Below, one piece after another: positions 1-20,980 of a DNA stretch of 64,000 bases. The translations under genes were made by a program, and so were the position numbers. The stretch comes from Rickettsiales bacterium (GTDB taxonomy: Bacteria; Pseudomonadota; Alphaproteobacteria; Rs-D84): positions 5,257 through 69,256 of the forward strand of contig JAIRUP010000003.1 in the NCBI GenBank assembly GCA_031254335.1. The letters are read 5' to 3'. Positions within the stretch are counted from its first letter, which is position 1; the number at the start of each line of letters is the position of its first letter. The notes beneath the pieces are model-generated. The model made no database searches. It was not told the origin of the DNA and was given only the letters and a program-made list of their open reading frames with translations.

Positions 1-2698
1 AGAACGCTTCGTCCGCGACCAGCTGGCAAGCGCGAACATCGCGTCAAGCACCCCGCAGGACATCATAAACGCCCGCCAGTTGGTTGCAGCCATATCGGAG
101 TTTTTTGGAAGCTCTCCGTTGTCGCAGCTGCTTGAACAGACAAACCCGCTTGCAGAAATCGAGCACAAACGCCTTGTGTCCGCCTTGGGTCCCGACGGAC
201 TCAACCGCGAGCGCGCCGGACTCGATGTTCGAGATGTGCATCCGACATACTACGGCCGCATTTGCCCAATCCAAGCCCCCGAAGGCCAGAACATCGGCCT
301 TATCAACCATTTCTCGGTTTATGCCCGCGTCAATAAATACGGCTTTGTCGAGACGCCTTATTATATAGTCAAGGGCGGCGTCGTGACCGACGAGCTTATA
401 TACCTTACCGCCGACGAGGAGGCCAAGCACAAAATCGCCCAGGGAAATTCCAAGCTGGACGAAAAACGCCGCCTTGTGGACGACAACCTGATTGCCCGCG
501 TCGACGAGGAATTCACCATGGTGCCGCGCGACGAAATCGACCTTATCGATGTGTCCACCAAGCAAGTCATATCCCTTGCGACGGGGCTTATCCCGTTCCT
601 TGAAAACGACGACGCCAACCGCGCCCTTATGGGTTCCAACATGATGAAACAGGGCGTACCCCTTGTCCGTTCCGACGCCCCGCTGATTGGAACGGGAATC
701 GAGAGCGTCATAGCCCGCGATTCCAAATCCGTCGAAATCGCCAAGCATTCCGGCGTAGTCGAGCTTGTGGACGCAGAACGCATAGTCGTCAAATGCATGA
801 ATTCCCGCAATGTCGTTTCCGGCGTGGACATTTACAACCTTAAAAAGTTCCAGCGGTCCAACAGCGACAAGCTTATGCACCAAAAGCCCCTTGTCAAAAT
901 CGGCGACCGAGTGAACGCCGGAGATGTCATAGCAGACGGGTCCTGCACCGAGCACGGCGAGCTTGCGCTCGGTCGGAATGTCGTCGTCGCATTCATGCCG
1001 TGGCGCGGATACAACTATGAAGACTCCATCGTCATATCAGAAAAAATCTCGCGCGAGGACACCTTCACATCCATAAAAATCTTCAAGAAGGAAGTCCGCG
1101 CCAAGGACACACAGCTTGGCCAGGAATCATTCACCCGCGACATCCCGAATGTCGGCGAGCACGCGCTTCGCAACCTTGACGAGTCCGGCATAATTTATGT
1201 CGGCGCGCATGTCAAGCCCGGCGACATCCTGGTCGGAAAGGTTTCCCCGAAGGCCGAGAGTTCCCCGACGCCCGAAGAAGATTTGCTTCGCGCAATCTTC
1301 GGCGAGAAGGCCCTTAATGTCCGCGACACATCCCTGCGCATGGCCGCGGGAGAAGAGGGCGTCGTAGTCGGCGTCGATGTTCTGACCCGCCACGGCGTTC
1401 CCAAAGACGAGCGCACACAGATGATTGAGATGCAGAAAATATCCAAGGTCAATAAAGACCGCGAGGACGAGCGGGAGATTCTTGAAAAAGGATATTACGC
1501 GCAGGTTTATCCGCTTGTCGAAGGCAAAATCCTGGTTTCCGGCGCTGGTTCCTTGAAACAGCACATGGGACGCAAGCTGACCCAGGGCGTTCTTGAATCC
1601 CTGCGTCTTGGCGACATCAAGAAAATCGCGGTCAAAGACCCCGAGGCCCAGGCCAAGGTCGATGTCATAAAAGAGCAGCACAACGCCGCCCTTAAAGCAC
1701 TCGACGAGCGCAGCGACGCCATGGTGAAAAAAATCCAAGAGGGGAATTCCCTTACCGCAGGCGTCTTGAAAGAGGTCAAAGTCTATATCGCCCACAAGAT
1801 GAAGCTGCAACCCGGCGACAAGATGGCCGGCCGCCACGGAAACAAGGGCATCGTGTCCAGCATCGTTCCCGTCGAATCCATGCCGCACCTTAGCGATGGA
1901 ACGCCCGTCGACATCGTCCTTAACCCGCTCGGCGTGCCGTCCCGTATGAACATCGGGCAGATTTTAGAGACCCACTTGGGCTTCGCTTCGCGCGGGCTGG
2001 GCCAGCAAATCGACGACATGCTGAACAAAATAAAAGCCAAGAAAGCAACCGCCGACGACCTTCGCGTCAAACTGCGCAAGGCTTACGACGACAAGGGAAT
2101 CGCGGCGCAATTCGAGAAGATGAACCAGGGCGAAATCCTGGCCCAGGGCGAATTGCTTCGCAAGGGAATCCCCATGTCTTCCCCGTCCTTCGACGGCGCG
2201 CTTCCCGAAGAAATTCACAAGGCCCTGGAACAGGCCGGTTTGCCCAAATCCGGACAGGTGGACCTGTATGACGGAATGACAGGCGACAAGTTCGCACGCC
2301 CCGTAACCGTCGGCGTAATCTACATGATGAAGCTGAAACACCTTGTGGACGAGAAGATTCACGCGCGCTCCACCGGCCATTACACCCTGATTACCCAGCA
2401 GCCGCTGAGCGGCCGCGCAAACATGGGCGGTCAACGCTTTGGCGAAATGGAGACATGGGCGTTGGAAGCCCACGGCGCGGCGCATATCCTTAAAGAGATG
2501 CTTACCGTCAAATCCGACGACATCACGGGCCGAAACAAGATGTATGAGGCCGTTATCTCGGGTTCGACCGACATCAAGACCGGCATTCCGGAGGGCTTCA
2601 ATGTCCTTACCCGCGAGCTTCGCGCTATCGGACTGAACCTGTCCATGAAAAGCCGCGAGAAGGTGAAGGAAGAGGAAGCCGCGGAGGCGAACGAATGA
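1..2698 (+). CDS. rpoB: DNA-directed RNA polymerase subunit beta, C-terminal portion; the 5' end lies upstream of the window
   Basis: Frame-2 translation from base 2 reads ERFVRDQLASANI...; the ORF ends in ...GRNKMYEAVISG...GLNLSMKS, the conserved beta-subunit C-terminus; it lies immediately upstream of rpoC. Confidence 0.95.
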   Translation, partial: ERFVRDQLASANIASSTPQDIINARQLVAAISEFFGSSPLSQLLEQTNPLAEIEHKRLVSALGPDGLNRERAGLDVRDVHPTYYGRICPIQAPEGQNIGLINHFSVYARVNKYGFVETPYYIVKGGVVTDELIYLTADEEAKHKIAQGNSKLDEKRRLVDDNLIARVDEEFTMVPRDEIDLIDVSTKQVISLATGLIPFLENDDANRALMGSNMMKQGVPLVRSDAPLIGTGIESVIARDSKSVEIAKHSGVVELVDAERIVVKCMNSRNVVSGVDIYNLKKFQRSNSDKLMHQKPLVKIGDRVNAGDVIADGSCTEHGELALGRNVVVAFMPWRGYNYEDSIVISEKISREDTFTSIKIFKKEVRAKDTQLGQESFTRDIPNVGEHALRNLDESGIIYVGAHVKPGDILVGKVSPKAESSPTPEEDLLRAIFGEKALNVRDTSLRMAAGEEGVVVGVDVLTRHGVPKDERTQMIEMQKISKVNKDREDEREILEKGYYAQVYPLVEGKILVSGAGSLKQHMGRKLTQGVLESLRLGDIKKIAVKDPEAQAKVDVIKEQHNAALKALDERSDAMVKKIQEGNSLTAGVLKEVKVYIAHKMKLQPGDKMAGRHGNKGIVSSIVPVESMPHLSDGTPVDIVLNPLGVPSRMNIGQILETHLGFASRGLGQQIDDMLNKIKAKKATADDLRVKLRKAYDDKGIAAQFEKMNQGEILAQGELLRKGIPMSSPSFDGALPEEIHKALEQAGLPKSGQVDLYDGMTGDKFARPVTVGVIYMMKLKHLVDEKIHARSTGHYTLITQQPLSGRANMGGQRFGEMETWALEAHGAAHILKEMLTVKSDDITGRNKMYEAVISGSTDIKTGIPEGFNVLTRELRAIGLNLSMKSREKVKEEEAAEANE

Positions 2699-2811
2699 CA
2701 AAAAATCCAATCGCGGTTTTTCTTGGTCCTCGGCGATTTTCTCTCGAAAACGCGACCTCGCTAGGATTTTTAGAAATTTAATAAAATAGGAATAAAAAGA
2801 GGAGTTCAATC

Positions 2812-5800
2812 ATGAGCATGTTGCAGAAAATCTTCGGCCAAATCGAAACCAACGACCCGTTCGAGGCGTTGCGCATAACCGTCGCTTCGCCGGACGAAAT
2901 CAAATCGTGGTCCTTCGGCGAAGTCAAGAAGCCCGACACCATCGACTATCACTCGCTGCGCCCGGAGCCCGAGGGCCTTTTCTGCCAGCAGATTTTCGGA
3001 CCCACCAAGGACTATGAGTGCGCCTGCGGAAAATACAAGCGCATAAAGTTCCGCGGCGTCGTCTGCGAACGCTGCGGCGTCGAAGTCGGCGCGTCCTCCG
3101 TCCGCCGCGAACGCATGGGACACATCAAACTTATAACCCCCGTCGTCCACAACTGGTTCATGCGCGAAGGCAAAATCGCGACCCTTCTCAACAACATGCC
3201 CAACAAGAAGCTGGACCAGGTCGTGTCATACGACAATTACATCGTGTCCGAGCCGGGCCTTACCGACCTTAAACTTTACGATGTCATATCCGAGGACGAA
3301 TATCAGAAGAAAGTCGAAGAGTTCGGGGCCGACAGCTTCCGCGTCGGCATCGGAGCCGAGGGAATCCGCAACATCATAACCGCCCTTGACATGGTCGAAG
3401 AGCGCAACCGACTTCGCGCCGAGCTGGCCGACACCAAGTCCGATGTCAAAAGACGCGGCTTGCAAAAGCACCTGCGCCTGGTCGAGCAATTCGTTTCCAG
3501 CGGCGTCAATCCGTCCTGGATGATTATGGACACCATCCCCGTTCTGCCGCCCGAACTGCGCCCGCTGGTCCAGCTTGACGCGGGACATGTGGCGACGAGC
3601 GACCTCAACGACCTTTATCGCCGCGTCATCATCCGCAACAACCGCTTGAAGAAACTTATCGAAATGCGCGCGCCCGAAATCATAGTCCGCAACGAAAAGC
3701 GCATGCTGCAAGAGGCCGTCGACGCCTTGTTCGACAACAGCCACAAGCCACGCCCGATGGTTTCGCAGAACAAGCATATCCTTAAATCCCTGAGCGACTC
3801 GCTTCGCGGCAAGCAGGGCCGGTTCCGCATGAACCTGCTTGGCAAGCGCGTGGACTATTCCGGCCGCTCGGTCATCGTTTCCGGCCCGACGCTCCGCCTG
3901 CACCAGGTCGGTCTTCCCAAAATCATGGCCCTTGAACTGTTCCGCCTGTTCGTTTATGCCGAGCTTCTCGCCATGGACCACGCCAACACTTTGAAGACCG
4001 CAAAGAAGATGGTCGAAAACCAAGAGCCAATCGTTTGGGATATTTTACAGAAGGTCATTTACCAGCACCCGGTTCTTCTCAACCGCGCGCCGACGCTTCA
4101 CAAACTTTCCGTCCTTGCGTTCGAACCGATTCTCGTCGAAGGCAAAGCCATCCACCTTCATCCGCTTGTCTGCAAGGGCTTCAACGCCGACTTCGACGGC
4201 GACGCGATGGCCGTGCATGTGCCCATTTCGCTTGAAGCGCAGCTTGAAGCGCGCACCCTTATGCTTGCGTCAAACAATGTCCTTCACCCGGCCGACGGCG
4301 CGCCCGTAATCGTTCCGACGCAAGACATGGTGCTGGGCGTTTATTACATTTCGCTAGTCAACGGCGACTGGACGCAAAAATCCCCGCGCTTCGCCAATAT
4401 GGACGAAATCAAGATGGCCTTGGACAACAAGAGCATAGAGCTGCACACGCCAATCGTCGCGCGCTATGCCGAGGTCGCCTTGGACGGGACCGAATCAGTC
4501 AATTCCGTCAAGACAACCGCCGGACGCATGCTGCTTGGCGAGATGCTGCCGAAAAAACCCGGCATGTCGTTCGCCTTGGTCAACCAAGTCATGAGCAAGG
4601 GCAAAATCGAGGAGCTTCTCGCGTCCGCCTATGAATTCTGCGGCGACAAGGACATGATTATAATCGCCGACAAGCTCAAAAACATCGGATTCGAGCAGGC
4701 CGCCAAATCCGGCATATCCATAACCCAGGACGACATCCTTATTCCCGAAGGCAAGGCCAAGGCCATCGAGGCCGCGCGAAAGTCCGCCAGTGAAATCGAG
4801 AGCCAATACCAGAACGGACTTATATCCAACGGCGAACGATACAACAAAATCGTCGACATGTGGCAGAAGACGACCGAACATGTCGCCGCGCTGTCCTTCG
4901 AGACCATGGAAAAATCGTCGGCCGGCGGAAAATGGAACTCCATATCCATGATGGCCGATTCCGGCGCGCGCGGTTCCAAAACCCAAATCCGCCAGCTGGC
5001 CGGCATGCGCGGAGTCATGGCCAAGCCAAGCGGCGAAATTATCGAAGTCCCCATCATCTCGAACTTCAAGGAAGGACTCACCGTGTCCGAATACTTCACT
5101 TCGACCCACGGTTCCCGCAAAGGACTTTCCGACACCGCCATGAAGACCGCGGAAGCCGGATACCTGACGCGCCGACTTGTGTCCCTTGCCCAGAACATCG
5201 TCATAACCGAGGAAGACTGCGGAACGCACGAGTCCGTCGTCGAACGCGCAATCCACGACGGCGCGACCGTCGTCAAGACTTTGGGCAAAGTCGTCATGGG
5301 CCGATTCGCCGCGACGGATGTCAAAGACGCGTCAGGCAAGGTCATCGTCAAACGCAACGAGCTTATCACCAAGCAAGTCGCCAGCCGAATCGACGCCGCG
5401 GATATTAAGGAAATCGATGTGCGCAGCGTCCTTACCTGCGAATCCGACGGCCTTTGCGCCAAGTGCTATGGCAGCGACCTTTCCAAGGGAACCCAGGTTC
5501 AAATCGGCGAGGGCGTCGGAATCATCGCCGCCCAGGCCATCGGCGAACCGGGAACGCAGCTTACGCTCCGCACATTCCATGTCGGCGGAGTCGCCGTGTC
5601 CAGCGGCGGAGCCGACGGACAAATCGCAACGCCCGCCGCGGGAAAAGTCGAATTCGAGAATGTCGGAATCGCCGTCAATTCGAAGGGCCGAAACATCGTC
5701 ATGGGCCACAACGCCTATGCCAAAATCGGAAGCGCGCGGGTGAAGCTCCCTTATTCCGCCGAGCTGTTCGTCGCCGACGGCGCGGTCGTGGAAAAGGGCG

Positions 5801-6936
5801 CGAAGCTGGCCGAAGTCGACCCGTATTCGCGCGTCATTCTCGCAGAAAAATCCGGCAAGGCGGCATACCGCGACCTTATAGACAACATTTCCTATAAGGA
5901 GGAAGAGGACCCCGTATCCGGCGCCTCGTCGAAGAAAATCATCAACTGGAAGAACATTACCAAGAAATCCCTGAAACCGTCCATCGCCATCCTTGACGAG
6001 TCCGGCGAAATCATAACCAGCGGCAAAAACAAGCTGGAATACATGATGCCGATTTACGCCATACTCAACATCAACGACGGCGACGAAATCAAGGCCGGAG
6101 ATGTCATCGCCTGGATTCCCGTCGAAAACCAGAAGACCAAGGACATCACGGGCGGTCTTCCGCGCGTCGAGGAATTATTGGAAGCGCGAAACCTTAAAAA
6201 TCCCGCCGTGCTTGCCGACATCGACGGCGAAATCGAAATCGACGATTCGCACAAGTCCAAAATCATGGTTCGAATCCTTCCCGCAGACGCCGCCGAAAAA
6301 CCCGTCGAATACATGATTCCGAAGGGCTCCGGCATTCTTGTGCAGAACGGCGATATCGTCAAAAAATCCGATTTCATAGTCGGCGGCGATGTCGTGCCGG
6401 AAGACATTCTCCGCATTTCGGGGCGCAAGGCTTTGGCGACCTATATGGTGGAGCAAGTCCAACAGGTTTATAGGCTTCAAGGCGTGTCCATCAACAACAA
6501 GCACATGGAAATCATAATCCGCGAGATGATGCGCAAAGTCGAAATCACAGACCCGAAGGACACCAAATTCTCGTCCGGGCAGGAAGTGAACATCGGAACG
6601 CTTCGCGCGGAAAACAAGCGCGTCATCAGCGATGGCAAGAAGCCCGCCCTGTTCAAGCCGCGCCTGATGGGTATTTCCAAGCTGTCCCGCTCGTCCGACA
6701 GCTTTATCAGCAACGCCGCGTTCCAAGAGGTCACACGCGTGCTTACCGACGCCGCGATTCAGGGCCAGGTCGACAAGCTGGAAGGCCTTAACGAGAACCT
6801 GATTGTGGGCCGACTGATACCGCTTGGCACGGGAACCTATGTTCGCCGCGTGCGCGAAATCGCCGAGGCAGAAGAGGCAAGCGAGGTCGCCAAAATCGAA
6901 GAGGGCGTGCCGGAGCAGGGGACGCTGGACCTCTGA
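2812..6936 (+). CDS. rpoC: DNA-directed RNA polymerase subunit beta' (1374 aa)
   Basis: N-terminal Zn-finger region CACGKYKRIKFRGVVCERCGVEV; the NADFDGD catalytic motif is present; an aagaggag RBS lies 12 nt upstream of the ATG. Confidence 0.97.
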   Translation: MSMLQKIFGQIETNDPFEALRITVASPDEIKSWSFGEVKKPDTIDYHSLRPEPEGLFCQQIFGPTKDYECACGKYKRIKFRGVVCERCGVEVGASSVRRERMGHIKLITPVVHNWFMREGKIATLLNNMPNKKLDQVVSYDNYIVSEPGLTDLKLYDVISEDEYQKKVEEFGADSFRVGIGAEGIRNIITALDMVEERNRLRAELADTKSDVKRRGLQKHLRLVEQFVSSGVNPSWMIMDTIPVLPPELRPLVQLDAGHVATSDLNDLYRRVIIRNNRLKKLIEMRAPEIIVRNEKRMLQEAVDALFDNSHKPRPMVSQNKHILKSLSDSLRGKQGRFRMNLLGKRVDYSGRSVIVSGPTLRLHQVGLPKIMALELFRLFVYAELLAMDHANTLKTAKKMVENQEPIVWDILQKVIYQHPVLLNRAPTLHKLSVLAFEPILVEGKAIHLHPLVCKGFNADFDGDAMAVHVPISLEAQLEARTLMLASNNVLHPADGAPVIVPTQDMVLGVYYISLVNGDWTQKSPRFANMDEIKMALDNKSIELHTPIVARYAEVALDGTESVNSVKTTAGRMLLGEMLPKKPGMSFALVNQVMSKGKIEELLASAYEFCGDKDMIIIADKLKNIGFEQAAKSGISITQDDILIPEGKAKAIEAARKSASEIESQYQNGLISNGERYNKIVDMWQKTTEHVAALSFETMEKSSAGGKWNSISMMADSGARGSKTQIRQLAGMRGVMAKPSGEIIEVPIISNFKEGLTVSEYFTSTHGSRKGLSDTAMKTAEAGYLTRRLVSLAQNIVITEEDCGTHESVVERAIHDGATVVKTLGKVVMGRFAATDVKDASGKVIVKRNELITKQVASRIDAADIKEIDVRSVLTCESDGLCAKCYGSDLSKGTQVQIGEGVGIIAAQAIGEPGTQLTLRTFHVGGVAVSSGGADGQIATPAAGKVEFENVGIAVNSKGRNIVMGHNAYAKIGSARVKLPYSAELFVADGAVVEKGAKLAEVDPYSRVILAEKSGKAAYRDLIDNISYKEEEDPVSGASSKKIINWKNITKKSLKPSIAILDESGEIITSGKNKLEYMMPIYAILNINDGDEIKAGDVIAWIPVENQKTKDITGGLPRVEELLEARNLKNPAVLADIDGEIEIDDSHKSKIMVRILPADAAEKPVEYMIPKGSGILVQNGDIVKKSDFIVGGDVVPEDILRISGRKALATYMVEQVQQVYRLQGVSINNKHMEIIIREMMRKVEITDPKDTKFSSGQEVNIGTLRAENKRVISDGKKPALFKPRLMGISKLSRSSDSFISNAAFQEVTRVLTDAAIQGQVDKLEGLNENLIVGRLIPLGTGTYVRRVREIAEAEEASEVAKIEEGVPEQGTLDL

Positions 6937-6960
6937 TTTGGTCGTGCTATGACAAAAAAT

Positions 6961-6984
6961 CCCCCTTAATAAGGGGGATTTTTC
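6961..6984 (+). terminator. Rho-independent terminator after rpoC
   Basis: Hairpin ccccctt-aat-aaggggg followed by a T-run, 25 nt after the rpoC stop. Confidence 0.7.
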
Positions 6985-7035
6985 ATTTGAAAAATATTTA
7001 TGGCTTGTCTATAATAAATCGCAAAAGGGGATAAA

Positions 7036-8115
7036 ATGGCGACAGTCATAGCTATGTTCAATCATAAAGGCGGAGTAAGTAAAACCACTACCACATTTCA
7101 TTTGGGATGGAAATTGGCTCGTCTTGGAAAACGAGTATTGATTGTTGACGCCGACCCGCAATGCAATTTGACCGGACTTGCACTTGGAATAGAGGATTAC
7201 GACTCTTTATTCGGTTTTTATGACAGCCGCCGCAATAACGATATTTTTTCGGCACTCGCGCCCGTGTTCAATATGGGTAACGGTGAGGGCAATACAATAC
7301 AATCTTTCGGCGTTACGGATATAAAAGATAATGAAAATTTGAAACTGCTGGCCGGCCATGTAAGATTTGCAGAACTTGATATGCAGATTGCGACTGCTAT
7401 AACAAGTAGCGCTGGATTGCCGGTATTGCGAGAGCTAGTCGGAGCATTCAATAAACTTATTCGGGAGGCCGCACTGAGGATGGCGGCGGACATAGTCATA
7501 ATAGACATGAGTCCTAGCATATCCGCTACAAATATGTGCCTGTTGATGGGAAGCGACAATTTTATAGTTCCGACATCGCCGGATTTTTATTGTTATCAGG
7601 CTATAGATTCCCTTAGCGAGGTTTTCCCAAAGTGGGCGCGGACAATGTCCGAATTCAAGAATGGAGTGGTGTTGCCGAGAAATAATCCCAAGATGATGGG
7701 TCTAATATCCCAAAATTACAGGGTTTATACGACGGACCCTAATGCGGATAAAAAAACAATGACAGCTTCATATCAAAGATGGGCCGATAAAATAAAGAAG
7801 ATAACCAATGAAAAATTGGTCCCCTCGTTAAATACCCATAACATGGTTATATCAAAAGAAGTGTTTGAAAGAAATGTAAAATATGATTCACCATACAACT
7901 TGGCGAATATCCAAGACCTTAATACTCTTATAGCCATATCACAGCGTCTCTCCAAACCTGTGTTTGAAATAACTGAAAAAGAATACGGAAGCGGCACGGT
8001 TTGGGAACATAAGACGACCAATGACAAAATGGTTGGCGCAAAATACACGGTAGAAGAACTGGATAAAGTATATTCGGAAATGGGAAAAGCTATAATAGGA
8101 ATGATACAACCATAA
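7036..8115 (+). CDS. ParA/MinD-family ATPase, unusually long (359 aa), in an AT-rich islet
   Basis: Deviant Walker A NHKGGVSKTTT; a VDADPQCNLT motif; about 100 aa of C-terminal extension beyond the canonical ParA size of roughly 255 aa; GC is clearly lower than the flanking rpoC; an aaagggga RBS is present. Confidence 0.8.
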   Translation: MATVIAMFNHKGGVSKTTTTFHLGWKLARLGKRVLIVDADPQCNLTGLALGIEDYDSLFGFYDSRRNNDIFSALAPVFNMGNGEGNTIQSFGVTDIKDNENLKLLAGHVRFAELDMQIATAITSSAGLPVLRELVGAFNKLIREAALRMAADIVIIDMSPSISATNMCLLMGSDNFIVPTSPDFYCYQAIDSLSEVFPKWARTMSEFKNGVVLPRNNPKMMGLISQNYRVYTTDPNADKKTMTASYQRWADKIKKITNEKLVPSLNTHNMVISKEVFERNVKYDSPYNLANIQDLNTLIAISQRLSKPVFEITEKEYGSGTVWEHKTTNDKMVGAKYTVEELDKVYSEMGKAIIGMIQP

Positions 8116-8125
8116 TAAAAAATGT

Positions 8126-8152
8126 GTCGCCGCGAAAGCGGCGACTTTCTTA
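8126..8152 (+). terminator. Hairpin terminator after the ParA-like gene; this is the first module of an E-family repeat
   Basis: gtcgccgc-gaaa-gcggcgac followed by tttctt; the same hairpin-plus-tail architecture recurs after lpxD at 16332. Confidence 0.55.
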
Positions 8153-8314
8153 TTACCTGGATGGGCGGGTTGGACCCGACCATGACATTTGATGATGAGG
8201 TCCCGCGGTCAAGCCGCGGGATGATAAAAACGGGGAGGTCAAGGGGAAAATCGGGCTTGAAAAATTTTCTAGGACGGGGAGGCGGCGGGGCGCGTTTTGT
8301 GGTATAATATACCT

Positions 8315-8839
8315 ATGCCGATATTCGATTCTTCAACTTCGCTGCTTTACTGTCCAGAGTGTCTTCAAAAGGACAGGGAACTTTACGAATCGGCACGAAA
8401 AATCGTTTATAAAGACAGCGGCATTATGCCCAAAATCGTTTCGGACACCACCAAAATCAACACACTTCCCCTGGACGCCGTTTTCTATTATCCAATCATG
8501 ACCACAAACAAGCACTGGTGGCTGAATCTTGTCGGCGCGGGAGATGTCAAACTTGTCGACAAACTCATCGTGTCCCCGGAATGCCAGCTGGCGGTCATCC
8601 GAAATGTCAGCGAATTCGAGACCAAAAAAGCGGGCAAGAAAAATCTAAGCGTTGGCGAAGTCAAAACCGCCAGCGCTTTTTTCAAAGTCGTTTCCAAAAA
8701 AATAACCTGCGTTCACGATATGATTGCGACCGGCAGCGGCACCGTCATGATTCTTTTCGGCGGGATTAACGAGGGGAAGCTGGCCGCCGCGTTACACGAC
8801 ACGGGCAATCAATATTACGGCGTCATCGGGTCTTATTAA
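8315..8839 (+). CDS. Hypothetical protein, about 175 aa, partner of the ParA-like gene
   Basis: ORF 8297..8839; a TGgTATAAT extended -10 overlaps the first codons, so the ATG at 8315 (MPIFDSS...) is the likely start; an N-terminal CPEC motif; no recognisable family. Confidence 0.5.
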   Translation: MPIFDSSTSLLYCPECLQKDRELYESARKIVYKDSGIMPKIVSDTTKINTLPLDAVFYYPIMTTNKHWWLNLVGAGDVKLVDKLIVSPECQLAVIRNVSEFETKKAGKKNLSVGEVKTASAFFKVVSKKITCVHDMIATGSGTVMILFGGINEGKLAAALHDTGNQYYGVIGSY

Positions 8840-9075
8840 TACGGACAAAAAATATAAGGCTGGTTTTTCAAAATCGGTCTATATTTCCGATTAACTGTGA
8901 AAAACCACCCGTCGCGGACCGCCAAGTCCAGACGCCGGGCGGTTTTTCTTGTTCCTCGAAAATCTATCCTCGATTTTGCGACCAGCCTAATATTTTTTGA
9001 GTTATTGAGCGGCGGTGGCCCGCACGCATTATGGATTTATACAATTTGAGATGCCGAGCTTCCTCGGCATGACGG

Positions 9076-9771
9076 CTAGGGTTGGGTCCAGGCGGGGGAT
9101 TTGACCGATTTTTCCAAGAATTCGTTCCAGGTTTTTAATTCCGCCTCGCTGGGCGGGAAATCGCGCGGTTCGCGGCCAGTCGTTTTCGGGATTTCCTTCA
9201 TCGCTTTCTCGAACCGCTCCTTTATCGAATCATAGCTTTCCATGTCCTGGGCGCGCGTCAATTCCAAATAGACCTGCGCCAGGATTTTCGAATCGACCAG
9301 CGCGCTATGCGCGAATTCGCGCTCCTTCAAACTTATATCGAACCATTTCGCCAGCGCGTCCAAGGAATACGACTTCGGCCCGAACACGCGGTTCCTTGCG
9401 AGGATAAGGCTGTCGCACTGACGCTCCCGCGGGACTTCGGGCAGGCCGCTTGCGCGCAGCTGGAAATTAAAGAACGGAAAGTCGAAGTCCTGGCCGTTAT
9501 GCGCCACAATCAGCGAGTCCTTGAAAAACTCCAACACCTTGGGCGCGATTTCCTTGAATTTGGGCTTCCCTTCCAGCGCGTGGTTGGAAATCTTATGGAC
9601 TTCATAGGCTTCCTTTGGAATCAATTTCCCTTCCGGGTTTATAAGCTCGTGCACATGCGCGCCGGTCAGTTTGCCGTCCAGGATTTCCACCGCCGCGATT
9701 TCGATTATCTTGTCCCCGTTCCGGTAATCGAAGCCCGTCGTTTCCGTATCGAAGCACACTATGCGAGACAT
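9076..9771 (-). CDS. dnaQ: DNA polymerase III epsilon subunit, 3'-5' exonuclease
   Basis: Exo I motif FDTETTG, Exo II HNGQDFDFPF and Exo III HSALVDSKILAQVY; an aaagggga RBS precedes the second ATG (MSRIV...). Confidence 0.9.
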   Translation of the reverse strand: MSRIVCFDTETTGFDYRNGDKIIEIAAVEILDGKLTGAHVHELINPEGKLIPKEAYEVHKISNHALEGKPKFKEIAPKVLEFFKDSLIVAHNGQDFDFPFFNFQLRASGLPEVPRERQCDSLILARNRVFGPKSYSLDALAKWFDISLKEREFAHSALVDSKILAQVYLELTRAQDMESYDSIKERFEKAMKEIPKTTGREPRDFPPSEAELKTWNEFLEKSVKSPAWTQP

Positions 9772-12996: not shown

Positions 12997-13050
12997 GACC
13001 CCCCACCAAAACCGCTTTGCGGTTTTGGCTCCCCCGCAAGGGGGGAGCTG
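12997..13050. repeat. C-family palindromic repeat (gaccccccacc...hairpin...cccccgcaaggggggag)
   Basis: Identical termini recur at 21988, 30011, 32374, 39928, 41368, 47712, 56285 and 62989, and in the composite copies at 46805, 53330 and 59902. Confidence 0.85.
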
Positions 13051-13056
13051 ATTTTA

Positions 13057-13707
13057 TTATTTTACTTTCAGGTTGAACTTGGTGGCTTTCTTGTCAAGCG
13101 CGGCTATGATTTCGTTCGTTATATCAAGCCCCGGCGCTTTGCTGACCACGCGGGTGAACCTGGCGTCCATTATAAGGTCCAGGCCTTTCTTCGCCGCGAG
13201 CGCGTCGATTACAGGGTCCAGATGCTTTTCCTGGATTTCAAGCAGCGCAGCTTGGAACGAAGCGTCGATGGCCTGGGCGCGCTCGGCTATTTCCTTTTGG
13301 AATTCGCCGACCGTTCTTTGGTATTCCACCACGCGCTGCTGCAACGCTTCGCGCGACAGGATTCCCTGCTGGCTTTCGATGGCTTTCTTTTCCGATTCCA
13401 ATTTCTTCTGCTTCCTTTCAAGGTCCGACTTCAAGTCGCTTTCCAGGCTTTCGCGCTGTTTCCGCAAATCCGCCAGGATTTTCGCGCTCTTTTGGATGTC
13501 GTCCATTCTGACGACCGCTATGCGCAGGTCCGCCGCAGACACCGAGAGCGCGGACGCGTCCGCCACCGCATGCTCGGCCGAGATGTTGCGCTTCATGCCG
13601 CCGATGGCGAAGACGCCAATCCCCGCCGCGACCACCGCGACCGCAGCCGCGATTATAACTATTTTTTTGCTTTTGCCTTTCTGTTTAACAGGTGCTTGGT
13701 TTGCCAT
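13057..13707 (-). CDS. skp: Skp/OmpH-family periplasmic chaperone
   Basis: N-terminal anchor or signal, then a long coiled-coil (K/E/Q-rich) typical of OmpH; ends ...KKATKFNLKVK; the start is taken at MANQAPVKQK. Confidence 0.75.
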   Translation of the reverse strand: MANQAPVKQKGKSKKIVIIAAAVAVVAAGIGVFAIGGMKRNISAEHAVADASALSVSAADLRIAVVRMDDIQKSAKILADLRKQRESLESDLKSDLERKQKKLESEKKAIESQQGILSREALQQRVVEYQRTVGEFQKEIAERAQAIDASFQAALLEIQEKHLDPVIDALAAKKGLDLIMDARFTRVVSKAPGLDITNEIIAALDKKATKFNLKVK

Positions 13708-15198: not shown

Positions 15199-15267
15199 GG
15201 AATGACTGTGGAGGTCGGGCTTGACCCGAGAATCCCAGTATATTATAATCATAAAAAAAGGAACTCC

Positions 15268-16321
15268 CATGCTGAAAAGACTTATGGCACGATTCTTTGC
15301 GCCGAAGGCGTCCGTCAAACTCACCGCAGGCGAAGTCGCCGACAAGCTGGGTTTGGAAGTCCGCGGGAACCGCGACGAATTGATAACGGGCCTTGCGCCA
15401 ATCGCAGACGCCAATCCGGGGCAGGCTTCGTTCTATTCCACCGAGAAGACTTCCACCGCGGGCAAGGTTCTTCCCATCGAGGTTCTTCGCAACACCAAGG
15501 CTTCCGTCATTCTCTTGCAGCCCGAGCAGGTATGCGACGCGCCCAAAGGGGCCACACTTGTAATATCCGACAGTCCGCGCCGAGATGTCATCAAAATCAT
15601 GGAAATCATTTTCGCCCCGAAAAAACGGCGCGGAATCGACCGAAGCGCGAAGATTGCCCGCGGCGTTTTCTTCCGCGACAAGAAGTCCGTTTTCATCGGA
15701 CCGAACGCCGTTATCGAACCGGGCTGCGTCATCGAGCCGGATGTCGAAATCGAATCGTGCGCATACATCGGCGGACGCAGCGTCATCGGACGCGGCACCG
15801 TCATCCGCCCCTTCGCCTATGTCATGAACACAACCTGCGGCGCGGACTGCGAAATCCAGAACGGCGCGTCCGTCGGCAAACACGGATTCGGATATTCCAT
15901 CGTCGACGGCAAGAACACGCCCATTCCGCACCTTGGCCGCGTGGTTTTGGGCGACCGGGTCGATGTCGGCGCGAACAGCGTCGTCGACCGCGGCGTCATG
16001 GCCGACACCGTTGTCGGCGAAGGCACCAAGTTCGACAGCCTTGTCATGGTCGGGCATAATGTCGTTTTCGGAAAGGAATGCTTCGCCGCAGGGCAGTCGG
16101 GATTCGCGGGCGGCACGGTTGTCGGCGACCGCGCCAAATTCGGCGGACAGGCCGGCGCGGTCAACAAGATTGCCATCGGCGACGACGCGGAGGTCGGCAC
16201 GAATTCATGCCCGACCAAGAATGTCCCGGCCGGAGCGAAACTGCTGGGATTCCCCGCCGTCCCCGCGAACGAGTTCTTGCGGATGCACGCTTTCCTTAAA
16301 CGGGCGGTCAAGCCGGAGTGA
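15268..16321 (+). CDS. lpxD: UDP-3-O-(3-hydroxyacyl)glucosamine N-acyltransferase
   Basis: N-terminal LpxD domain followed by left-handed beta-helix hexapeptide repeats (GxxVxIGxxxxI...); a tataat lies upstream. Confidence 0.85.
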
Positions 16322-16331
16322 TAATTAGGAA

Positions 16332-16358
16332 TCGGCCGCGAAAGCGGCCGATTTTCTT
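16332..16358 (+). terminator. Hairpin terminator after lpxD; first module of an E-family repeat
   Basis: cggccgc-gaaa-gcggccg followed by attttctt; the remainder of the element (...attacctagatggtcgggtcggagcccgaacatgaca) matches 8153..8190. Confidence 0.55.
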
Positions 16359-16402
16359 ATTACCTAGATGGTCGGGTCGGAGCCCGAACATGACAAGATG
16401 TT

Positions 16403-17413
16403 TTACCGGGATTTGACGCCGGTTTCGGAGCGGATGGCGTAAAGCTGGCGCGCGGCTGAAAGATTGTAATCCTCGCCCACAAGATTGAAATACACATCGG
16501 TATATCCCGCGACCGTGTTCTTTATATCTTCGTCCGCAAGGACAAGCTCCTGCTGCGGAAGCTCGCCTTCATAGTTTTTCTTCATCGCGCGTACAAGACG
16601 GCGCACCGGCTCCTTGTCCAAGCTGGCAGGGTCGCGCTTTTCGGCGAAGGCCTTCTCGTATTCGTCGCTTGCGACGAAGCGGGATGAATCCGGAGTGAAA
16701 GCCTCGTCCCCAAGGATAATATTTTCGTCTTCCCGTCCAAGCTCCACCTTCGTATCAATCAGGACTATGCCTTTGCCGAGCGCGTATTCGCTGGCGTCCT
16801 TGAACAGTTTAAGCGAGACAAGCTCTATCCCCGGACCGAATCCGGCATAGCCGTTTTGATTCAGGATTTCGCCCGCTTGCGCGACCGTTATATTCTCGTC
16901 ATGAAGGCCCAGTTCCGCCTTGGTCGACGGCGTATAAATCGCGCCCTTGGGGAATTTCTGCCAGTTCACGAGGCCCTTGCCCACATCGTGGCCCATCAGC
17001 ATGCCGTTGTTGTCCTCGTTGTATTTTTTCACGACGCTGCCAGTGAAATAGCCGCGAACGATACATTCCAGCGGGAACATATCCAATTTCTTAACCAATA
17101 TCGCGCGGTTTTTCAGCCGCTGTGACACGGGCTTCAAGGCCGGGATGCCGCGCGCTATGCTTTCAATATCCTTGTCCACGATATGGTTCGAATTCGGCGC
17201 AAGCTTTTCCATCCAGAAATTCGACATTTGATTCAGGACTATGCCCTTGCCAGGAATCTTGGACTTCAAGACGACATCCAGGGCCGAGATTCGGTCGGTC
17301 GTGACGATTAAAAGATATTTGTCGTCCGCCTTGTAAGTCTCGCGGACTTTGCCGACATTCAGCAACGGAAGGGGTATGAAATCGAAATCGGGTTTGATTT
17401 GGGGTTTCGCCAT
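16403..17413 (-). CDS. purC: Phosphoribosylaminoimidazole-succinocarboxamide (SAICAR) synthase, long form
   Basis: 336 aa; PurC-like N-terminus (LLNVGKVRETY...) and ATP-grasp-like core. Confidence 0.8.
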   Translation of the reverse strand: MAKPQIKPDFDFIPLPLLNVGKVRETYKADDKYLLIVTTDRISALDVVLKSKIPGKGIVLNQMSNFWMEKLAPNSNHIVDKDIESIARGIPALKPVSQRLKNRAILVKKLDMFPLECIVRGYFTGSVVKKYNEDNNGMLMGHDVGKGLVNWQKFPKGAIYTPSTKAELGLHDENITVAQAGEILNQNGYAGFGPGIELVSLKLFKDASEYALGKGIVLIDTKVELGREDENIILGDEAFTPDSSRFVASDEYEKAFAEKRDPASLDKEPVRRLVRAMKKNYEGELPQQELVLADEDIKNTVAGYTDVYFNLVGEDYNLSAARQLYAIRSETGVKSR

Positions 17414-17508
17414 TTTAACGACCTTTGGTTTGTTGTTTCAAACTCTCTCAAATCCCCGTGAGTGAATTATCGCCCACGGCGCGCGAAAAGTCAAGGTCAG
17501 ACTTGGGC

Positions 17509-17536
17509 TTGACATCCGTTCGCGATTGGTTATAAT
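17509..17536 (+). promoter_or_regulatory. Near-consensus sigma70 promoter for fabZ
   Basis: TTGACA, a 16-nt spacer, then TATAAT, about 30 nt upstream of the fabZ ATG. Confidence 0.6.
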
Positions 17537-17566
17537 TTGTTAGAATTTTCAATAAGGGCCAAGAAA

Positions 17567-18016
17567 ATGTCCAAGAAATTTACAAAAAAAGACATAGAAA
17601 AAGTCATACCGCACCGCGGCGTCATGCTGCTTTTGGACGAGGCGACCGAAATCACAAAAACCTCGGGCAGGGCCGTGCATTTCGTCCGCGACGACGAGTT
17701 CTGGTGCGCCGGACACTTCCCGGGCAACCCCGTCATGCCGGGCGTGATTCAGGTCGAAGCACTTGCGCAGACGGCATGCCTTGTCGCGCTTAACGCCATG
17801 ATGGAGAAGTTCCCGAACCAGCGCGGCGCGGGGTATTTCACCAAAATCGAAAACTGCAAATTCACCAAGCTGGTTTGCCCGGGCGATGTTCTTGAACTGG
17901 AAGTGAACCTTATCATGAACAAGCTGACGCTTTACAAGTTCCACGGATGCGCGCGCGTCAATGGCGAAACGGTTTCGGAAGCTACTTTTTCCGCCATCAT
18001 GCAGTTCGGCGCATAG
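17567..18016 (+). CDS. fabZ: 3-hydroxyacyl-ACP dehydratase
   Basis: Hotdog-fold signature HFPGNPVMPGVIQVEALAQ. Confidence 0.9.
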   Translation: MSKKFTKKDIEKVIPHRGVMLLLDEATEITKTSGRAVHFVRDDEFWCAGHFPGNPVMPGVIQVEALAQTACLVALNAMMEKFPNQRGAGYFTKIENCKFTKLVCPGDVLELEVNLIMNKLTLYKFHGCARVNGETVSEATFSAIMQFGA

Positions 18017-18063
18017 CGCCTTTTCCCTTATAATTTCAGCCGCGAATATGCTATAATGCATTA

Positions 18064-20612: not shown

Positions 20613-20980
20613 AAAAAATCCAAGTTCGGTATTTCAAAATCGGTCTATATTTCCGATTAACTGCGAAAAACCGCCCGGCGCGGACACCTCAGTCCAGACG
20701 CCGGGCGGTTTTTCTTGTTCCTCGAAAATCTACCCTCGATTTTGCGACCGAACTACGGATTTTTTAGTTTATTAAATTATCCTCGGTGTCGCGACCCGGC
20801 TAATGTTTTTTGAGTTTATTAAATTATCCATCGAAATTGCGTTTCCGCTAAGGATTTTTTAGCTTTATTAAGCGGCGGTGGCCCGCACGCTTTGCGGCCG
20901 AGATTCTCCGGTCAAGCCGGGGAATGACAATTGATTTTTTACAATTTGAGATGCCGAGCTTCCTCGGCATGACAAAAGGA
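20612..20980. repeat. Composite intergenic repeat mosaic (D-family terminator element with a tandem sub-repeat, then an A and a B element)
   Basis: The D core aaaaaccgcccggcgcggac...gtccagacgccgggcggtttttcttgttcctcgaaaatct...tcgattttgcgacc recurs at 2699, 8840, 14950, 27148, 34540, 37430, 56140 and 58712; it is followed here by gccgagattctccggtcaagccggggaatgacaa (A) and atgccgagcttcctcggcatgaca (B). Confidence 0.85.

What the first reader, a model, noticed from the sequence alone, without database searches (positions are those of the whole stretch)
7036..8839. AT-rich two-gene islet after rpoC: a long ParA-like ATPase plus an unknown partner with a promoter-proximal start
Immediately after the rpoC terminator, GC drops sharply. 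The 359-aa ParA/MinD-type ATPase has a deviant Walker A (KGGVSKTT) and about 100 extra C-terminal residues. A hairpin terminator follows, then a 175-aa ORF with no recognisable family, preceded by TGgTATAAT only 6 nt before its ATG. D-, A- and B-family repeats bound the islet at 8840..9075. This is not a chromosomal parAB locus: there is no parB and no oriC context. Orphan long ParA-like ATPases paired with a small unknown protein occur in mobile or defence-type islands, but I cannot assign this one.
Basis: partly seen in the sequence, partly recalled or inferred. Interest (0 to 1): 0.6.

Follow-up and report, generated by a model that had tools for sequence, protein, structure and literature searches.

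The report
Solo mobile ParA-like ATPase cassette
A single foreign gene for a ParA-type ATPase has landed just behind rpoC; its family travels on prophages, transposons and toxin modules, and the small gene next to it is an unrelated native gene, so there is no two-gene system.

Summary

**Only the ATPase is foreign.** A sister Rickettsiales genome has the same rpoB-rpoC ... ORF2 - exonuclease - UvrD backbone at about 83% DNA identity. Between rpoC and ORF2 it carries a methyltransferase and a putative restriction enzyme instead of ParA. ParA is the strongest compositional outlier in the window (GC 0.415, z = -3.6). It has its own promoter and terminator.

**ORF2 is a native gene.** It is 174 aa, vertically inherited (dN/dS 0.14, dS like rpoC), and belongs to a 35-member family seen mainly in Rickettsiales MAGs. 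It is never next to ParA elsewhere. It has a conserved leaderless-type promoter.

**The ATPase family is large and widely transferred.** These ~360-aa stand-alone ParA-fold proteins have PDB 3PG5 as their nearest solved relative. The family occurs in four settings:
- directly downstream of prophage cI-type repressors (26 of 80 viral loci);
- as passenger of a 2.3-kb IS1595-type transposon;
- translationally coupled to a RiboL-PSP HEPN RNase (25 of 95 cellular loci);
- solo, as here.

**Likely role.** I infer an accessory conflict or exclusion ATPase rather than a partition protein; this is untested. The finding is a new member of a known kind and of moderate interest.

The parts
6933..8287 (.). 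Variable (non-syntenic), AT-rich segment between rpoC and ORF2. It holds the ParA-like cassette. The right-hand limit is probably nearer 8230.
   Evidence: BLASTN against the sister locus L004 aligns window 2-6932 and 8288-8851 at 82.6% and 83.3%, with nothing aligned in between. MAFFT extends weak homology back to about 8230. GC is 0.424 here against 0.568 for rpoC.
6955..6983 (+). Bidirectional hairpin terminator after rpoC (AAAAATCCCCCTTA/TAAGGGGGATTTTT).
   Evidence: inverted repeat I4, 14 nt, 100% complementary.
6987..7015 (+). Sigma-70-type promoter of the ParA-like gene: TTGAAA, 17 nt, TATAAT (11 of 12 matches). The palindrome ATTTTTCAtTTGAAAAAT (6978-6995) overlaps the -35 hexamer.
   Evidence: Nucleotide homology to the 86%-identical homologue L100 starts at 6977, so the promoter travels with the gene while the sequence further upstream differs.
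7036..8115 (+). ParA/MinD-fold ATPase of 359 aa. It is a stand-alone ('orphan') member of a large, widely transferred family.
   Evidence: Pfam AAA_31 3e-29. phrog_164 1.6e-42 over aa 1-331. PDB 3pg5_A E = 1e-33 over aa 3-328. 4714 homologues at E <= 1e-10. GC z = -3.6. dN 0.088 against L100, with synonymous sites saturated.
8126..8145 (+). Intrinsic terminator of the ParA-like gene (GTCGCCGC-GAAA-GCGGCGAC followed by TTTCTT).
8193..8236 (.). Copy of a genome-wide palindromic intergenic repeat (GGTCCCGCGGTCAAGCCGCGGGATGA). It is a native element, not part of the cargo.
   Evidence: Family D3 has 9 copies in the window.
8300..8308 (+). Extended -10 promoter (TGgTATAAT) of ORF2, 6 nt before the ATG. 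This spacing implies a leaderless mRNA.
   Evidence: The arrangement TG-n-TATAAT followed 6-8 nt later by ATG is conserved in 6 of 6 family loci. That includes members with only 25-34% protein identity.
8315..8839 (+). ORF2, 174 aa. A native, lineage-restricted gene of unknown function with an alpha/beta fold. It is not a partner of ParA.
   Evidence: Orthologues of 85/67/59% identity occur in ParA-free contexts. The family has 35 members and no Pfam match. dN/dS is 0.14. The AF2 model has pLDDT 84.4 and no PDB fold match at E <= 1e-3.
8847..9003 (.). MITE-like dispersed repeat with 19-nt terminal inverted repeats (8846-8864 and 8981-8999). A second copy lies at 20613-20769 (86% identity).
   Evidence: families D13/D1; I1.
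9033..9088 (.). Another dispersed hairpin repeat (GAGATGCCGAGCTTCCTCGGCATGAC), 5 copies in the window.
   Evidence: family D12.

Best explanation
**Shown**
- The finding is a single-gene, horizontally acquired cassette: its own sigma-70 promoter, a 359-aa ParA-fold ATPase and its own terminator, at roughly 6977-8150.
- The cassette sits in a variable slot between the rpoBC operon and a native small gene (ORF2).
- In a sister genome the same slot holds a DNA methyltransferase and a putative restriction enzyme instead.
- ORF2 is a vertically inherited, lineage-restricted gene with a conserved leaderless-type promoter. It is unrelated to the ATPase.
- The ATPase belongs to a large family of ~360-aa stand-alone ParA-like proteins with intact ATP-binding and dimerisation motifs. 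The family moves between phyla.
- The family is found (a) immediately downstream of cI-type repressors in prophage immunity regions, (b) as the passenger gene of an IS1595-family transposon, (c) translationally coupled to a RiboL-PSP HEPN RNase, and (d) solo among housekeeping genes, as here.

**Inferred**
- The protein is an accessory conflict ATPase, not a chromosome-partition protein.
- As an ATP-dependent dimer it most likely does one of two things. It may interfere with an incoming element's ParA/ParB-type segregation or a similar process (exclusion or incompatibility, as shown for the unrelated orphan ParA ParI). In the HEPN-linked clade it may hold an RNase toxin in check.
- Here it acts alone, expressed from its own strong promoter.
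For: **Single-gene cargo and variable slot**
- Synteny breaks only at 6933-8287.
- L004 carries a 200-aa weakly SwaI-like protein plus an N6_N4_Mtase in the slot, also AT-rich at GC 0.41.
- ParA is the top compositional outlier in the window.
- The 86%-identical homologue L100 shares DNA only from the promoter onward, in a different context.
- Homologous genes are AT-rich (0.38-0.41) relative to their flanks in every host examined.

**ORF2 is native**
- Contexts without ParA.
- Backbone-like substitution pattern.
- Conserved promoter.

**Family and contexts**
- 4714 homologues.
- 584 genome stretches across many phyla, including 53% identity to a Chryseobacterium protein.
- At least 558 IMG/VR contigs.
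- A cI-type repressor (HTH_3 + Peptidase_S24) is gene -1 on the same strand in 26 of 80 viral loci, with Cro and CII genes divergent.
- In phage SE1, gp23 lies between cI-DUF3024 and gene 24. E. coli prophages fill that slot with NYN/PIN or DUF1828/DUF6978 genes.
- The IS1595 transposon has 26-bp inverted repeats and an 8-bp target duplication.
- A HEPN partner overlaps the ParA stop codon in 22 of 80 genome-collection loci. Pfam PF18735 scores 1.6e-16, and RRNxIxHE is kept in 19 of 22 partners.
- The window protein falls in the crown clade with solo, IS-borne and prophage copies.

**ATPase competence**
- K11, K16, T17, D38, D40 and D152/D157 are conserved.
- Selection is purifying.

**Precedents**
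- The ParA/Soj-HEPN dyad was predicted to be a toxin-antitoxin system (PMC3710099).
- The orphan ParI destabilises IncP-7 plasmids (PMC9178275, PMC8544851).
Against: - No member of this family has a tested function that I could find.
- There is no PADLOC defence-model match beyond the P-loop.
- Pfam scans of 150 near neighbours of cellular copies show mostly housekeeping genes and only a few restriction-modification genes. A distal-gene control was not run, so defence-island enrichment is untested.
- In this window there is no phage gene, repressor, transposase, inverted repeat or effector next to the gene. The mode of arrival and any target are therefore unknown.
- Exclusion by partition interference is argued by analogy. 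ParI has a different Walker A (KGGVGKS) and is probably not in this family.
- Reduced genomes keep few useless genes, so a domesticated cellular role is possible.
Confidence: 0.6

Rival explanations
1. ParA and the downstream 174-aa ORF form a two-gene mobile or defence module, with the small protein as the ATPase's partner or effector.
For: The two genes are adjacent and on the same strand. Both have below-average GC (0.415 and 0.477). ORF2 has no known family.
Against: - ORF2 is syntenic and 83% identical at DNA level in a sister genome that lacks ParA.
- ORF2 homologues occur in five other contexts without ParA.
- No ORF2-like gene lies near any of about 95 cellular or 80 viral ParA loci. 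No such cluster emerged.
- A terminator and an independent, conserved promoter lie between the genes.
- ORF2's dS matches the backbone.
- ORF2 is unrelated to the real HEPN partner.
Confidence: 0.03
2. A domesticated cellular positioning ATPase. The orphan ParA organises some host cargo (a protein cluster, the nucleoid or an organelle-like body) in this reduced-genome bacterium, as PpfA, McdA, MipZ or ParC do.
For: - The ParA motifs are intact and selection is strongly purifying.
- Many cellular copies sit singly among housekeeping genes in small genomes.
- The close relatives L007 and L010 keep the gene at a syntenic site after the rRNA operon.
Against: - It is absent from the sister genome at the same locus.
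- It is an extreme compositional outlier here, and AT-rich relative to every host examined.
- Its distribution is patchy and crosses phyla at 53-60% identity.
- It has a strong association with prophage immunity regions and with a transposon.
- No conserved cargo or adaptor gene lies nearby.
Confidence: 0.12
3. An orphan antitoxin or immunity gene. It descends from the ParA-HEPN toxin-antitoxin-like dyad and is retained alone to neutralise HEPN RNases brought in by other elements (anti-addiction), or as a leftover after toxin loss.
For: - It belongs to the same protein family as the ATPase of the dyads, at 37-43% identity over the full length.
- The ATPase occupies the upstream, antitoxin-like position and was predicted to be the antitoxin (PMC3710099).
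Against: - The solo, prophage and IS clades are separate from the HEPN-linked clade in the tree, not nested within it.
- The solo clade is larger, highly conserved and independently mobile. That fits an autonomous function better than a remnant.
- No HEPN gene of this type was seen in the window near the gene.
Confidence: 0.12
4. A functionless hitch-hiker: the last surviving gene of a decayed prophage or IS1595 transposon that inserted behind rpoC.
For: - Family members are cargo of exactly such elements.
- The gene is compositionally unameliorated, which suggests recent arrival.
- The slot is a cargo hot spot.
Against: - The reading frame is intact, with all catalytic residues, a near-consensus promoter and a terminator.
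- There are no transposase fragments, inverted repeats or phage gene remnants in the flanks.
- The same promoter-plus-gene unit is conserved at 86% protein identity in another context, with saturated synonymous change.
Confidence: 0.1

Closest known systems
ParA/Soj-like ATPase + HEPN gene dyad, predicted to be a toxin-antitoxin system (Anantharaman et al. 2013, PMC3710099)
   Same: The ATPase family is the same: 37-43% identity over the full length, the same length and the same motifs. In 25 of 95 cellular loci and 5 of 80 viral loci a ~200-aa HEPN RNase (Pfam RiboL-PSP-HEPN, motif RRNxIxHE) overlaps the ATPase stop codon.
   Different: The window gene has no HEPN partner and lies in a different clade of the family. 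The paper names the HEPN family MAE_18760, whereas Pfam's best match here is RiboL-PSP. Whether these are the same dyad was not resolved. The toxin-antitoxin function is a prediction, not an experiment.
ParI (PP_3700) of Pseudomonas putida KT2440, an orphan ParA on a genomic island that destabilises IncP-7 plasmids
   Same: It is an orphan ParA-type ATPase of about 1.1 kb on horizontally acquired DNA with no parB. Its effect depends on the ATPase motif and is directed against another mobile element (PMC9178275, PMC8544851, PMC7324555).
   Different: ParI's Walker A is KGGVGKS. In this family the residues are S15 (near-invariant) and T17 (invariant).
Lysogeny-expressed cargo genes downstream of prophage repressors, such as lambda rexAB and BTP1 bstA (from my own knowledge)
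   Same: Family members occupy exactly this position: gene +1 after a cI-type repressor on the same strand, in 26 of 80 viral loci and in phage SE1. In E. coli prophages the slot is swapped for NYN/PIN or DUF1828/DUF6978 genes.
   Different: No exclusion phenotype has been reported for the ParA-like gene. The window copy is not in a prophage.
PDB 3PG5, a 361-aa 'uncharacterized protein' from a structural-genomics deposit
   Same: It is the only solved full-length relative: profile E = 1e-33 over aa 3-328. It has the same DPQCN motif and the same insertion relative to Soj.
   Different: It is only a distant relative; the single-sequence match covers aa 4-210. No function or publication was found.
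Chromosomal and plasmid type I ParA (Soj, SopA, ParF) with ParB and parS
   Same: It shares the SIMIBI/MinD fold, the deviant Walker A with a signature lysine, and the Walker A' and B aspartates.
   Different: There is no parB, no parS and no iterons. It scores 67 bits against the NCBIfam ParA_partition cut-off of 180. It is about 100 aa longer through family-specific insertions, and it is horizontally acquired.
IS1595-family insertion sequences with passenger genes (ISfinder classification, from my own knowledge)
   Same: Crown-clade copies (L016, L024, L025, L185, L186) lie in a 2.3-kb unit. The unit has a DDE_Tnp_IS1595 transposase, 26-bp terminal inverted repeats and an 8-bp AT-rich target duplication.
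   Different: The window copy has no transposase and no inverted repeats.

Membership tests
ParA/MinD (deviant Walker A, SIMIBI) ATPase superfamily | Deviant Walker A KGGxxK[ST] with an N-terminal signature lysine | tested here: met
   The sequence reads NHKGGVSKTT at aa 9-18. K11 and K16 are at least 90% conserved and T17 is invariant in 27 homologues.
ParA/MinD (deviant Walker A, SIMIBI) ATPase superfamily | A profile match above the curated threshold, plus Walker A' and Walker B aspartates | tested here: met
   AAA_31 scores 102.6 bits (cut-off 27) and CbiA 57.4 bits (cut-off 25.4). D38, D40, D152 and D157 are invariant.
Type I ParABS partition system | An adjacent gene for a centromere-binding protein (ParB or equivalent) | tested here: not met
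   The flanking genes are rpoC, ORF2 (alpha/beta fold, no ParB or HTH match), an RNase T-like exonuclease and UvrD.
Type I ParABS partition system | A centromere: parS or iterated repeats near the operon | tested here: not met
   No parS consensus occurs within 3 mismatches anywhere in the window. There are no tandem repeats in 6800-9200.
Type I ParABS partition system | Equivalog-level match to partition ParA models | tested here: not met
   NF041546 ParA_partition scores 67 bits against a cut-off of 180. RepA, SopA and MinD models are all far below their cut-offs.
ParA/Soj-HEPN dyad (predicted toxin-antitoxin system) | A HEPN (Rx4-6H) RNase gene immediately downstream, usually overlapping the ATPase stop codon | tested here: not met
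   A terminator and a 199-nt spacer follow the gene. ORF2 shows no similarity to the partner, has no Rx4-6H motif, and is alpha/beta rather than all-alpha.
ParA/Soj-HEPN dyad (predicted toxin-antitoxin system) | The ATPase is homologous to the ATPase of the dyads | tested here: met
   Identity is 37-43% over the full length to ATPases of 22 HEPN-linked loci. They are in the same family but a separate clade.
IS1595-family transposon with passenger gene | An adjacent DDE_Tnp_IS1595 transposase | tested here: not met
   TBLASTN of the L016 and L024 transposases against the window gives nothing below E = 0.5.
IS1595-family transposon with passenger gene | Terminal inverted repeats and an 8-bp target duplication around the unit | tested here: not met
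   No credible flanking inverted repeat surrounds 6933-8290. Compare L016, which has 26-bp inverted repeats and the duplication TAAATTTA.
Prophage immunity-region cargo (moron downstream of cI) | A cI-type repressor directly upstream on the same strand, within a prophage | tested here: not met
   rpoC lies upstream and there are no phage genes in the flanks. The feature is met by relatives: 26 of 80 viral loci and phage SE1.
Known or candidate anti-phage defence systems (PADLOC-DB 2.0) | A full-length match to a defence-system protein model | tested here: not met
   Only the P-loop (aa 4-40) matches PDC-M28B, at E = 7e-8. ORF2 has no match.
ParI-type orphan ParA incompatibility factor | Sequence homology to ParI (PP_3700) and destabilisation of ParABS plasmids | not testable with these tools
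Its published Walker A, KGGVGKS, differs at positions that are invariant or near-invariant in this family. The phenotype needs an experiment.

The most novel reading that the evidence does not exclude
The ~360-aa stand-alone ParA-like ATPases (KGGVSKT / DADPQCNLT type, PDB 3PG5 fold) may be an uncharacterised, very widespread single-gene exclusion system. Under this reading it is expressed from prophage repressor operons, spread by IS1595 transposons and by naked promoter-gene cassettes, and blocks competing phages or plasmids by hijacking their ParA/ParB-type positioning or a related step. The HEPN-coupled clade would be an abortive-infection version of the same sensor. The window copy would then be a defence gene sitting in a defence hot spot behind rpoC, in a lineage where the alternative cargo is a restriction-modification system.
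Probability: 0.25. Interest if true: 0.6.

Novelty: new member of a known kind. Interest (0 to 1): 0.35.

Why it matters
For this genome the result is mostly tidying up. The apparent two-gene island is one foreign gene plus one native gene. The site behind rpoC is a cargo hot spot that holds a restriction-modification pair in a sister genome.

The wider value lies in the family. Thousands of near full-length relatives are annotated only as 'ParA family protein' or 'AAA family ATPase'. No tested function was found for any of them in the papers searched. The contexts assembled here all point to a role in conflicts between mobile elements and hosts:
- downstream of cI in hundreds of predicted prophages;
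- passenger of an IS1595 transposon;
- coupled to a HEPN RNase.

That role is directly testable in Salmonella phages SE1 and ST160.

ORF2 is a small additional curiosity. It belongs to a family seen mainly in Rickettsiales MAGs, has a confidently predicted fold with no match in the PDB, and has a conserved leaderless promoter.

Tried and rejected
1. **ORF2 as a phosphoribosyltransferase.** A faint NCBIfam hit to PRPP synthetase (E = 1.8e-4, 21 bits against a cut-off of 296) and a VHDMIATGSGT motif suggested it. The good AF2 model (pLDDT 84) gave no PRTase match. Only weak ACT- or ferredoxin-like hits appeared, with TM <= 0.33. Not supported.
2. **First AF2 run of ORF2.** With 5 sequences it was unusable (pLDDT 53). 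It needed the 32-sequence alignment gathered.
4. **ORF2 as a diverged HEPN or partner.** There is no similarity.
5. **PADLOC membership.** Only the P-loop matches.
6. **Defence-island enrichment around cellular copies.** Neighbours are heterogeneous and mostly housekeeping. I did not run the distal-gene control, so I make no enrichment claim.
7. **Transposon or prophage remnants around the window copy.** None were found.
8. **Centromere-like sites, iterons or structured RNAs in 6800-9300.** None were found. The sub-threshold Rfam hits are terminator hairpins.
9. **ParI as a family member.** The published primers do not match the Pseudomonas homologue L067, and the Walker A differs.
10. **Metagenome scan for closer copies.** It gave only 53-70% relatives, plus one N-terminal fragment in an unrelated GC-rich context.
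11. **Literature.** Searches for a tested function of this family found nothing.
Full report
**1. What is in the sequence**

- ORF 7036-8115 (+) encodes a 359-aa protein. It matches Pfam AAA_31 (3e-29) and CbiA (2e-15), and the phage family phrog_164 'ParA-like partition protein' (1.6e-42 over aa 1-331).
- GC falls from 0.565 just before the gene to 0.39-0.44 inside it.
- Among 49 ORFs of at least 100 aa in the window, this gene is the strongest compositional outlier. Its GC is 0.415 and GC3 0.417, against means of 0.538 and 0.649 (z = -3.6).
- It has a near-consensus promoter (TTGAAA-17-TATAAT, 6987-7015) and a clean terminator (8126-8145). The rpoC terminator lies at 6955-6983.
- The second ORF runs from the ATG at 8315 to 8839 and encodes 174 aa, not 175. 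It has no Pfam, PHROG or PADLOC match.
- TGgTATAAT ends 6 nt before that ATG.
- The repeats at 8847-9003 and 9033-9088 are real. They belong to repeat families scattered through all the intergenic regions of the window. One family also has a copy at 8193-8236, between the two genes.

**2. The two genes are not a pair**

Exact-match and homology look-ups name the source as a Rickettsiales MAG.

The closest ORF2 homologue (85% identity) lies in a sister genome, L004, with the same backbone: rpoB, rpoC, a slot, ORF2, an RNase T-like exonuclease on the other strand, and UvrD.
- BLASTN aligns window 2-6932 and 8288-8851 to L004 at 82.6% and 83.3%. Nothing aligns in between.
- In L004 the slot holds a 200-aa protein with a weak SwaI-like restriction-endonuclease match (E = 0.003) and an N6_N4 methyltransferase. 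That segment is also AT-rich, at GC 0.41.

More distant ORF2 homologues sit beside an MFS transporter, a RecA region, an AddB-like nuclease or GcrA. None of them is beside a ParA.

ORF2 evolves like its neighbours. Against L004 its dN/dS is 0.14 and dS 0.65. The values are 0.09 and 0.78 for rpoC, and 0.14 and 0.88 for the exonuclease.

So ORF2 is a native, vertically inherited gene. Only the segment from about 6933 or 6977 to about 8230 or 8287 is cargo.

A homologue with 86% protein identity (L100) supports this. It shares nucleotide similarity with the window from 6977, which is the promoter, to the end of the gene, but it has a different upstream context. The mobile unit is therefore essentially promoter plus gene.

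**3. ORF2 itself**

An exhaustive profile search and a follow-up search found only 35 family members. The named ones are Rickettsiales MAGs and the rest are unnamed metagenome contigs. None has a Pfam domain.
- With 32 sequences AlphaFold gave a confident alpha/beta model (pLDDT 84.4, pTM 0.73).
- Foldseek against the PDB found nothing at E <= 1e-3. The best TM-score was 0.33, with weak ACT- or ferredoxin-like hits.
- An early idea that ORF2 is a phosphoribosyltransferase is therefore not supported. That idea came from a faint PRPP-synthetase hit and a DM(I/L)ATDSGT motif.
TG-n-TATAAT lies 6-8 nt before the ATG in six of six loci examined, including members of only 25-34% protein identity. This implies a leaderless mRNA.

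The function of ORF2 remains unknown.

**4. The ATPase family**

The protein has 4714 homologues at E <= 1e-10 among the candidates scored.
- Many are full-length at 53-60% identity, in Rhizobium, Pantoea, Klebsiella, Serratia, Morganella and Neisseriaceae.
- A scan of one genome per species found 584 relatives. They include Chryseobacterium (53%), Firmicutes, cyanobacteria, Chloroflexi, Planctomycetes and Parcubacteria.
- The alignment shows conservation over the whole length, with NHKGGVSKTTT, DADPQCNLT, DMSPS, PTSPDFYCYQAIDSL and SQKLSKPIFEL.
- KGGVSKT fits the standard deviant Walker A pattern KGGxxK[ST] (as tabulated in PMC9178275). The signature and catalytic lysines and the Walker A'/B aspartates are conserved.
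- The extra length relative to Soj comes from family-specific insertions, not from an appended C-terminal domain.
- The nearest solved structure is 3PG5, a 361-aa structural-genomics protein. The profile E-value is 1e-33 over aa 3-328. No publication was found for it.
- The gene is under purifying selection: dN is 0.088 against L100, with synonymous sites saturated.
- The homologous genes are AT-rich (0.38-0.41) relative to their flanks in each host examined.

**5. Where the family lives**

Four recurrent settings emerged.

(a) A HEPN operon.
- In 22 of 80 genome loci a ~200-aa gene overlaps the ATPase stop codon by 4-17 nt.
- It matches Pfam RiboL-PSP-HEPN (1.6e-16) and keeps RRNxIxHE in 19 of 22 copies.
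- Adding the metagenome loci gives 25 of 95.
- A ParA/Soj-HEPN dyad of this kind was predicted in 2013 to be a toxin-antitoxin system, with the ATPase as antitoxin (PMC3710099).

(b) Prophage immunity regions.
- At least 558 IMG/VR contigs encode relatives.
- In 26 of the best 80 loci the gene directly upstream on the same strand is a cI-type repressor (HTH_3 + Peptidase_S24). Cro/YdaS-like and CII/YdaT-like genes lie divergently.
- This includes enterobacterial prophage copies that are 52-54% identical to the window protein.
- In Salmonella phage SE1 the gene (gp23) lies between cI-DUF3024 and gene 24.
- In E. coli prophages the same slot carries NYN/PIN or DUF1828/DUF6978 genes instead.
- Copies also sit beside the att site of a Pf1-like prophage and beside the integrase of a Helicobacter prophage.

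(c) A transposon.
- In L016 and L024 a 2.3-kb unit contains an IS1595-family transposase and the ATPase.
- It is bounded by 26-bp inverted repeats and an 8-bp duplication, TAAATTTA.
- Six loci in all are linked to this transposase.

(d) Solo copies.
- 61 of 95 cellular loci show none of these three contexts.
- Their neighbours are heterogeneous and mostly housekeeping.
- The closest long-contig relatives (70-73%; L007, L010) start about 110 nt after the 5S rRNA gene of an rRNA operon and lie next to restriction-modification genes.

A neighbour-joining tree puts the HEPN-linked ATPases in their own clade. The window protein falls in a crown clade together with solo, IS-borne and enterobacterial prophage copies.

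**6. How it most likely works**

Shown: this is a foreign, intact, independently transcribed ParA-fold ATPase. No partner, parB, parS, iterons, transposase, inverted repeats or phage genes lie near it.

Inferred: the family recurs in cargo positions of prophages and a transposon, and is coupled to an RNase toxin in one clade. I therefore think it is an accessory conflict ATPase.

ParA-type proteins dimerise on ATP and are switched by partner peptides. A solo copy could mis-engage the ParA/ParB-type positioning machinery of an incoming plasmid or phage. The precedent is ParI of P. putida, an orphan ParA on a genomic island that destabilises IncP-7 plasmids in an ATPase-dependent way. ParI has a different Walker A (KGGVGKS), so it is an analogy, not a relative. 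In the HEPN clade the same ATPase would gate the toxin.

Several points weigh against over-reading this.
- No family member has a tested function.
- PADLOC does not recognise the family.
- Neighbours of cellular copies are mostly housekeeping. I did not run a control for enrichment.

The rivals I keep open at about 0.1 each are a domesticated positioning ATPase, an orphan antitoxin and an inert remnant. The two-gene reading is effectively excluded.

**7. Verdict**

It is a new member of a known but functionally untested kind. Interest is moderate. It rests on the family-level picture and on the easy experiments that picture suggests, not on this particular locus.

Noticed in passing
window 8300-8317; L004, L002, L005, L096 and L098 upstream of the ORF2 homologues: TG-n-TATAAT lies 6-8 nt before the ATG, with no Shine-Dalgarno sequence, in all six loci of the ORF2 family. 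That includes members of only 25-34% protein identity, so the leaderless-mRNA arrangement is conserved. The family has 35 members (named ones are Rickettsiales MAGs) and a confident AF2 model with no PDB fold match.
   Followed up: partly
window-wide, for example 8193-8236, 20896-20939, 32224-32267, 41821-41864; 13019-13067, 39950-39998; 9033-9088: Several families of short palindromic intergenic repeats fill the intergenic regions. They include GGTCCCGCGGTCAAGCCGCGGGATGACA (9 copies), GACTCCCCCGCAAGGGGGGAGTT (7 copies) and GAGATGCCGAGCTTCCTCGGCATGAC (5 copies). They resemble REP or Rickettsia-palindromic-element repeats.
   Followed up: no
window 8847-9003 and 20613-20769: A ~157-nt MITE-like unit occurs twice at 86% identity. 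It has 19-nt terminal inverted repeats (8846-8864 and 8981-8999), and partial copies lie at four further sites.
   Followed up: no
L016 6780-9105; L024 6790-9113; also L025, L185, L186: A 2.3-kb IS1595-family transposon carries the ParA-like ATPase as its passenger gene. It has 26-bp inverted repeats (GGGGACTATATACCTAGCTAGCCAAA) and an 8-bp target duplication (TAAATTTA). It occurs in a Caulobacterales MAG and in Fuscovulum blasticum.
   Followed up: partly
L007 7774-8001; L010 7766-8001; window 6936-7036: The closest long-contig ParA homologues start about 110 nt after the 5S rRNA gene of an rRNA operon. The window copy starts 100 nt after rpoC. Both sites lie directly behind very highly transcribed, conserved operons. 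This could be coincidence or an insertion-site preference.
   Followed up: no
L004 8400-9802: In the sister genome the rpoC-ORF2 slot holds a 200-aa protein with a weak SwaI-like restriction-endonuclease match (E = 0.003) and an N6_N4 DNA methyltransferase, at GC 0.41. This is probably a type II restriction-modification pair, which makes the slot a cargo hot spot.
   Followed up: partly
L046 9050-9982; L061 9042-9971: Two sister ParA-like genes share a tightly linked downstream gene of about 310 aa (3-14 nt spacer) with no Pfam match. It may be a further partner type for this ATPase family.
   Followed up: no
E. coli prophages, for example NZ_CP028110.1 3927732-3929454 and NZ_CP022279.1 3038392-3040439: The slot that carries ParA-like gp23 in phage SE1, between DUF3024 and the N-like gene, holds NYN-domain plus PIN-domain genes or DUF1828 plus DUF6978 genes in E. 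coli lambdoid prophages. 538 of 5426 E. coli genomes match the flanks.
   Followed up: no
window 6978-6995: The palindrome ATTTTTCAtTTGAAAAAT overlaps the -35 hexamer of the ParA promoter and is partly kept in L100. It could be an operator, or simply the T-tract of the rpoC terminator.
   Followed up: no
window 15254-19922 against L004 14406-18057: This ~4.7-kb block is inverted relative to the sister genome, and window 12017-14335 matches L004 18126-20525. There is a local rearrangement just beyond UvrD.
   Followed up: no
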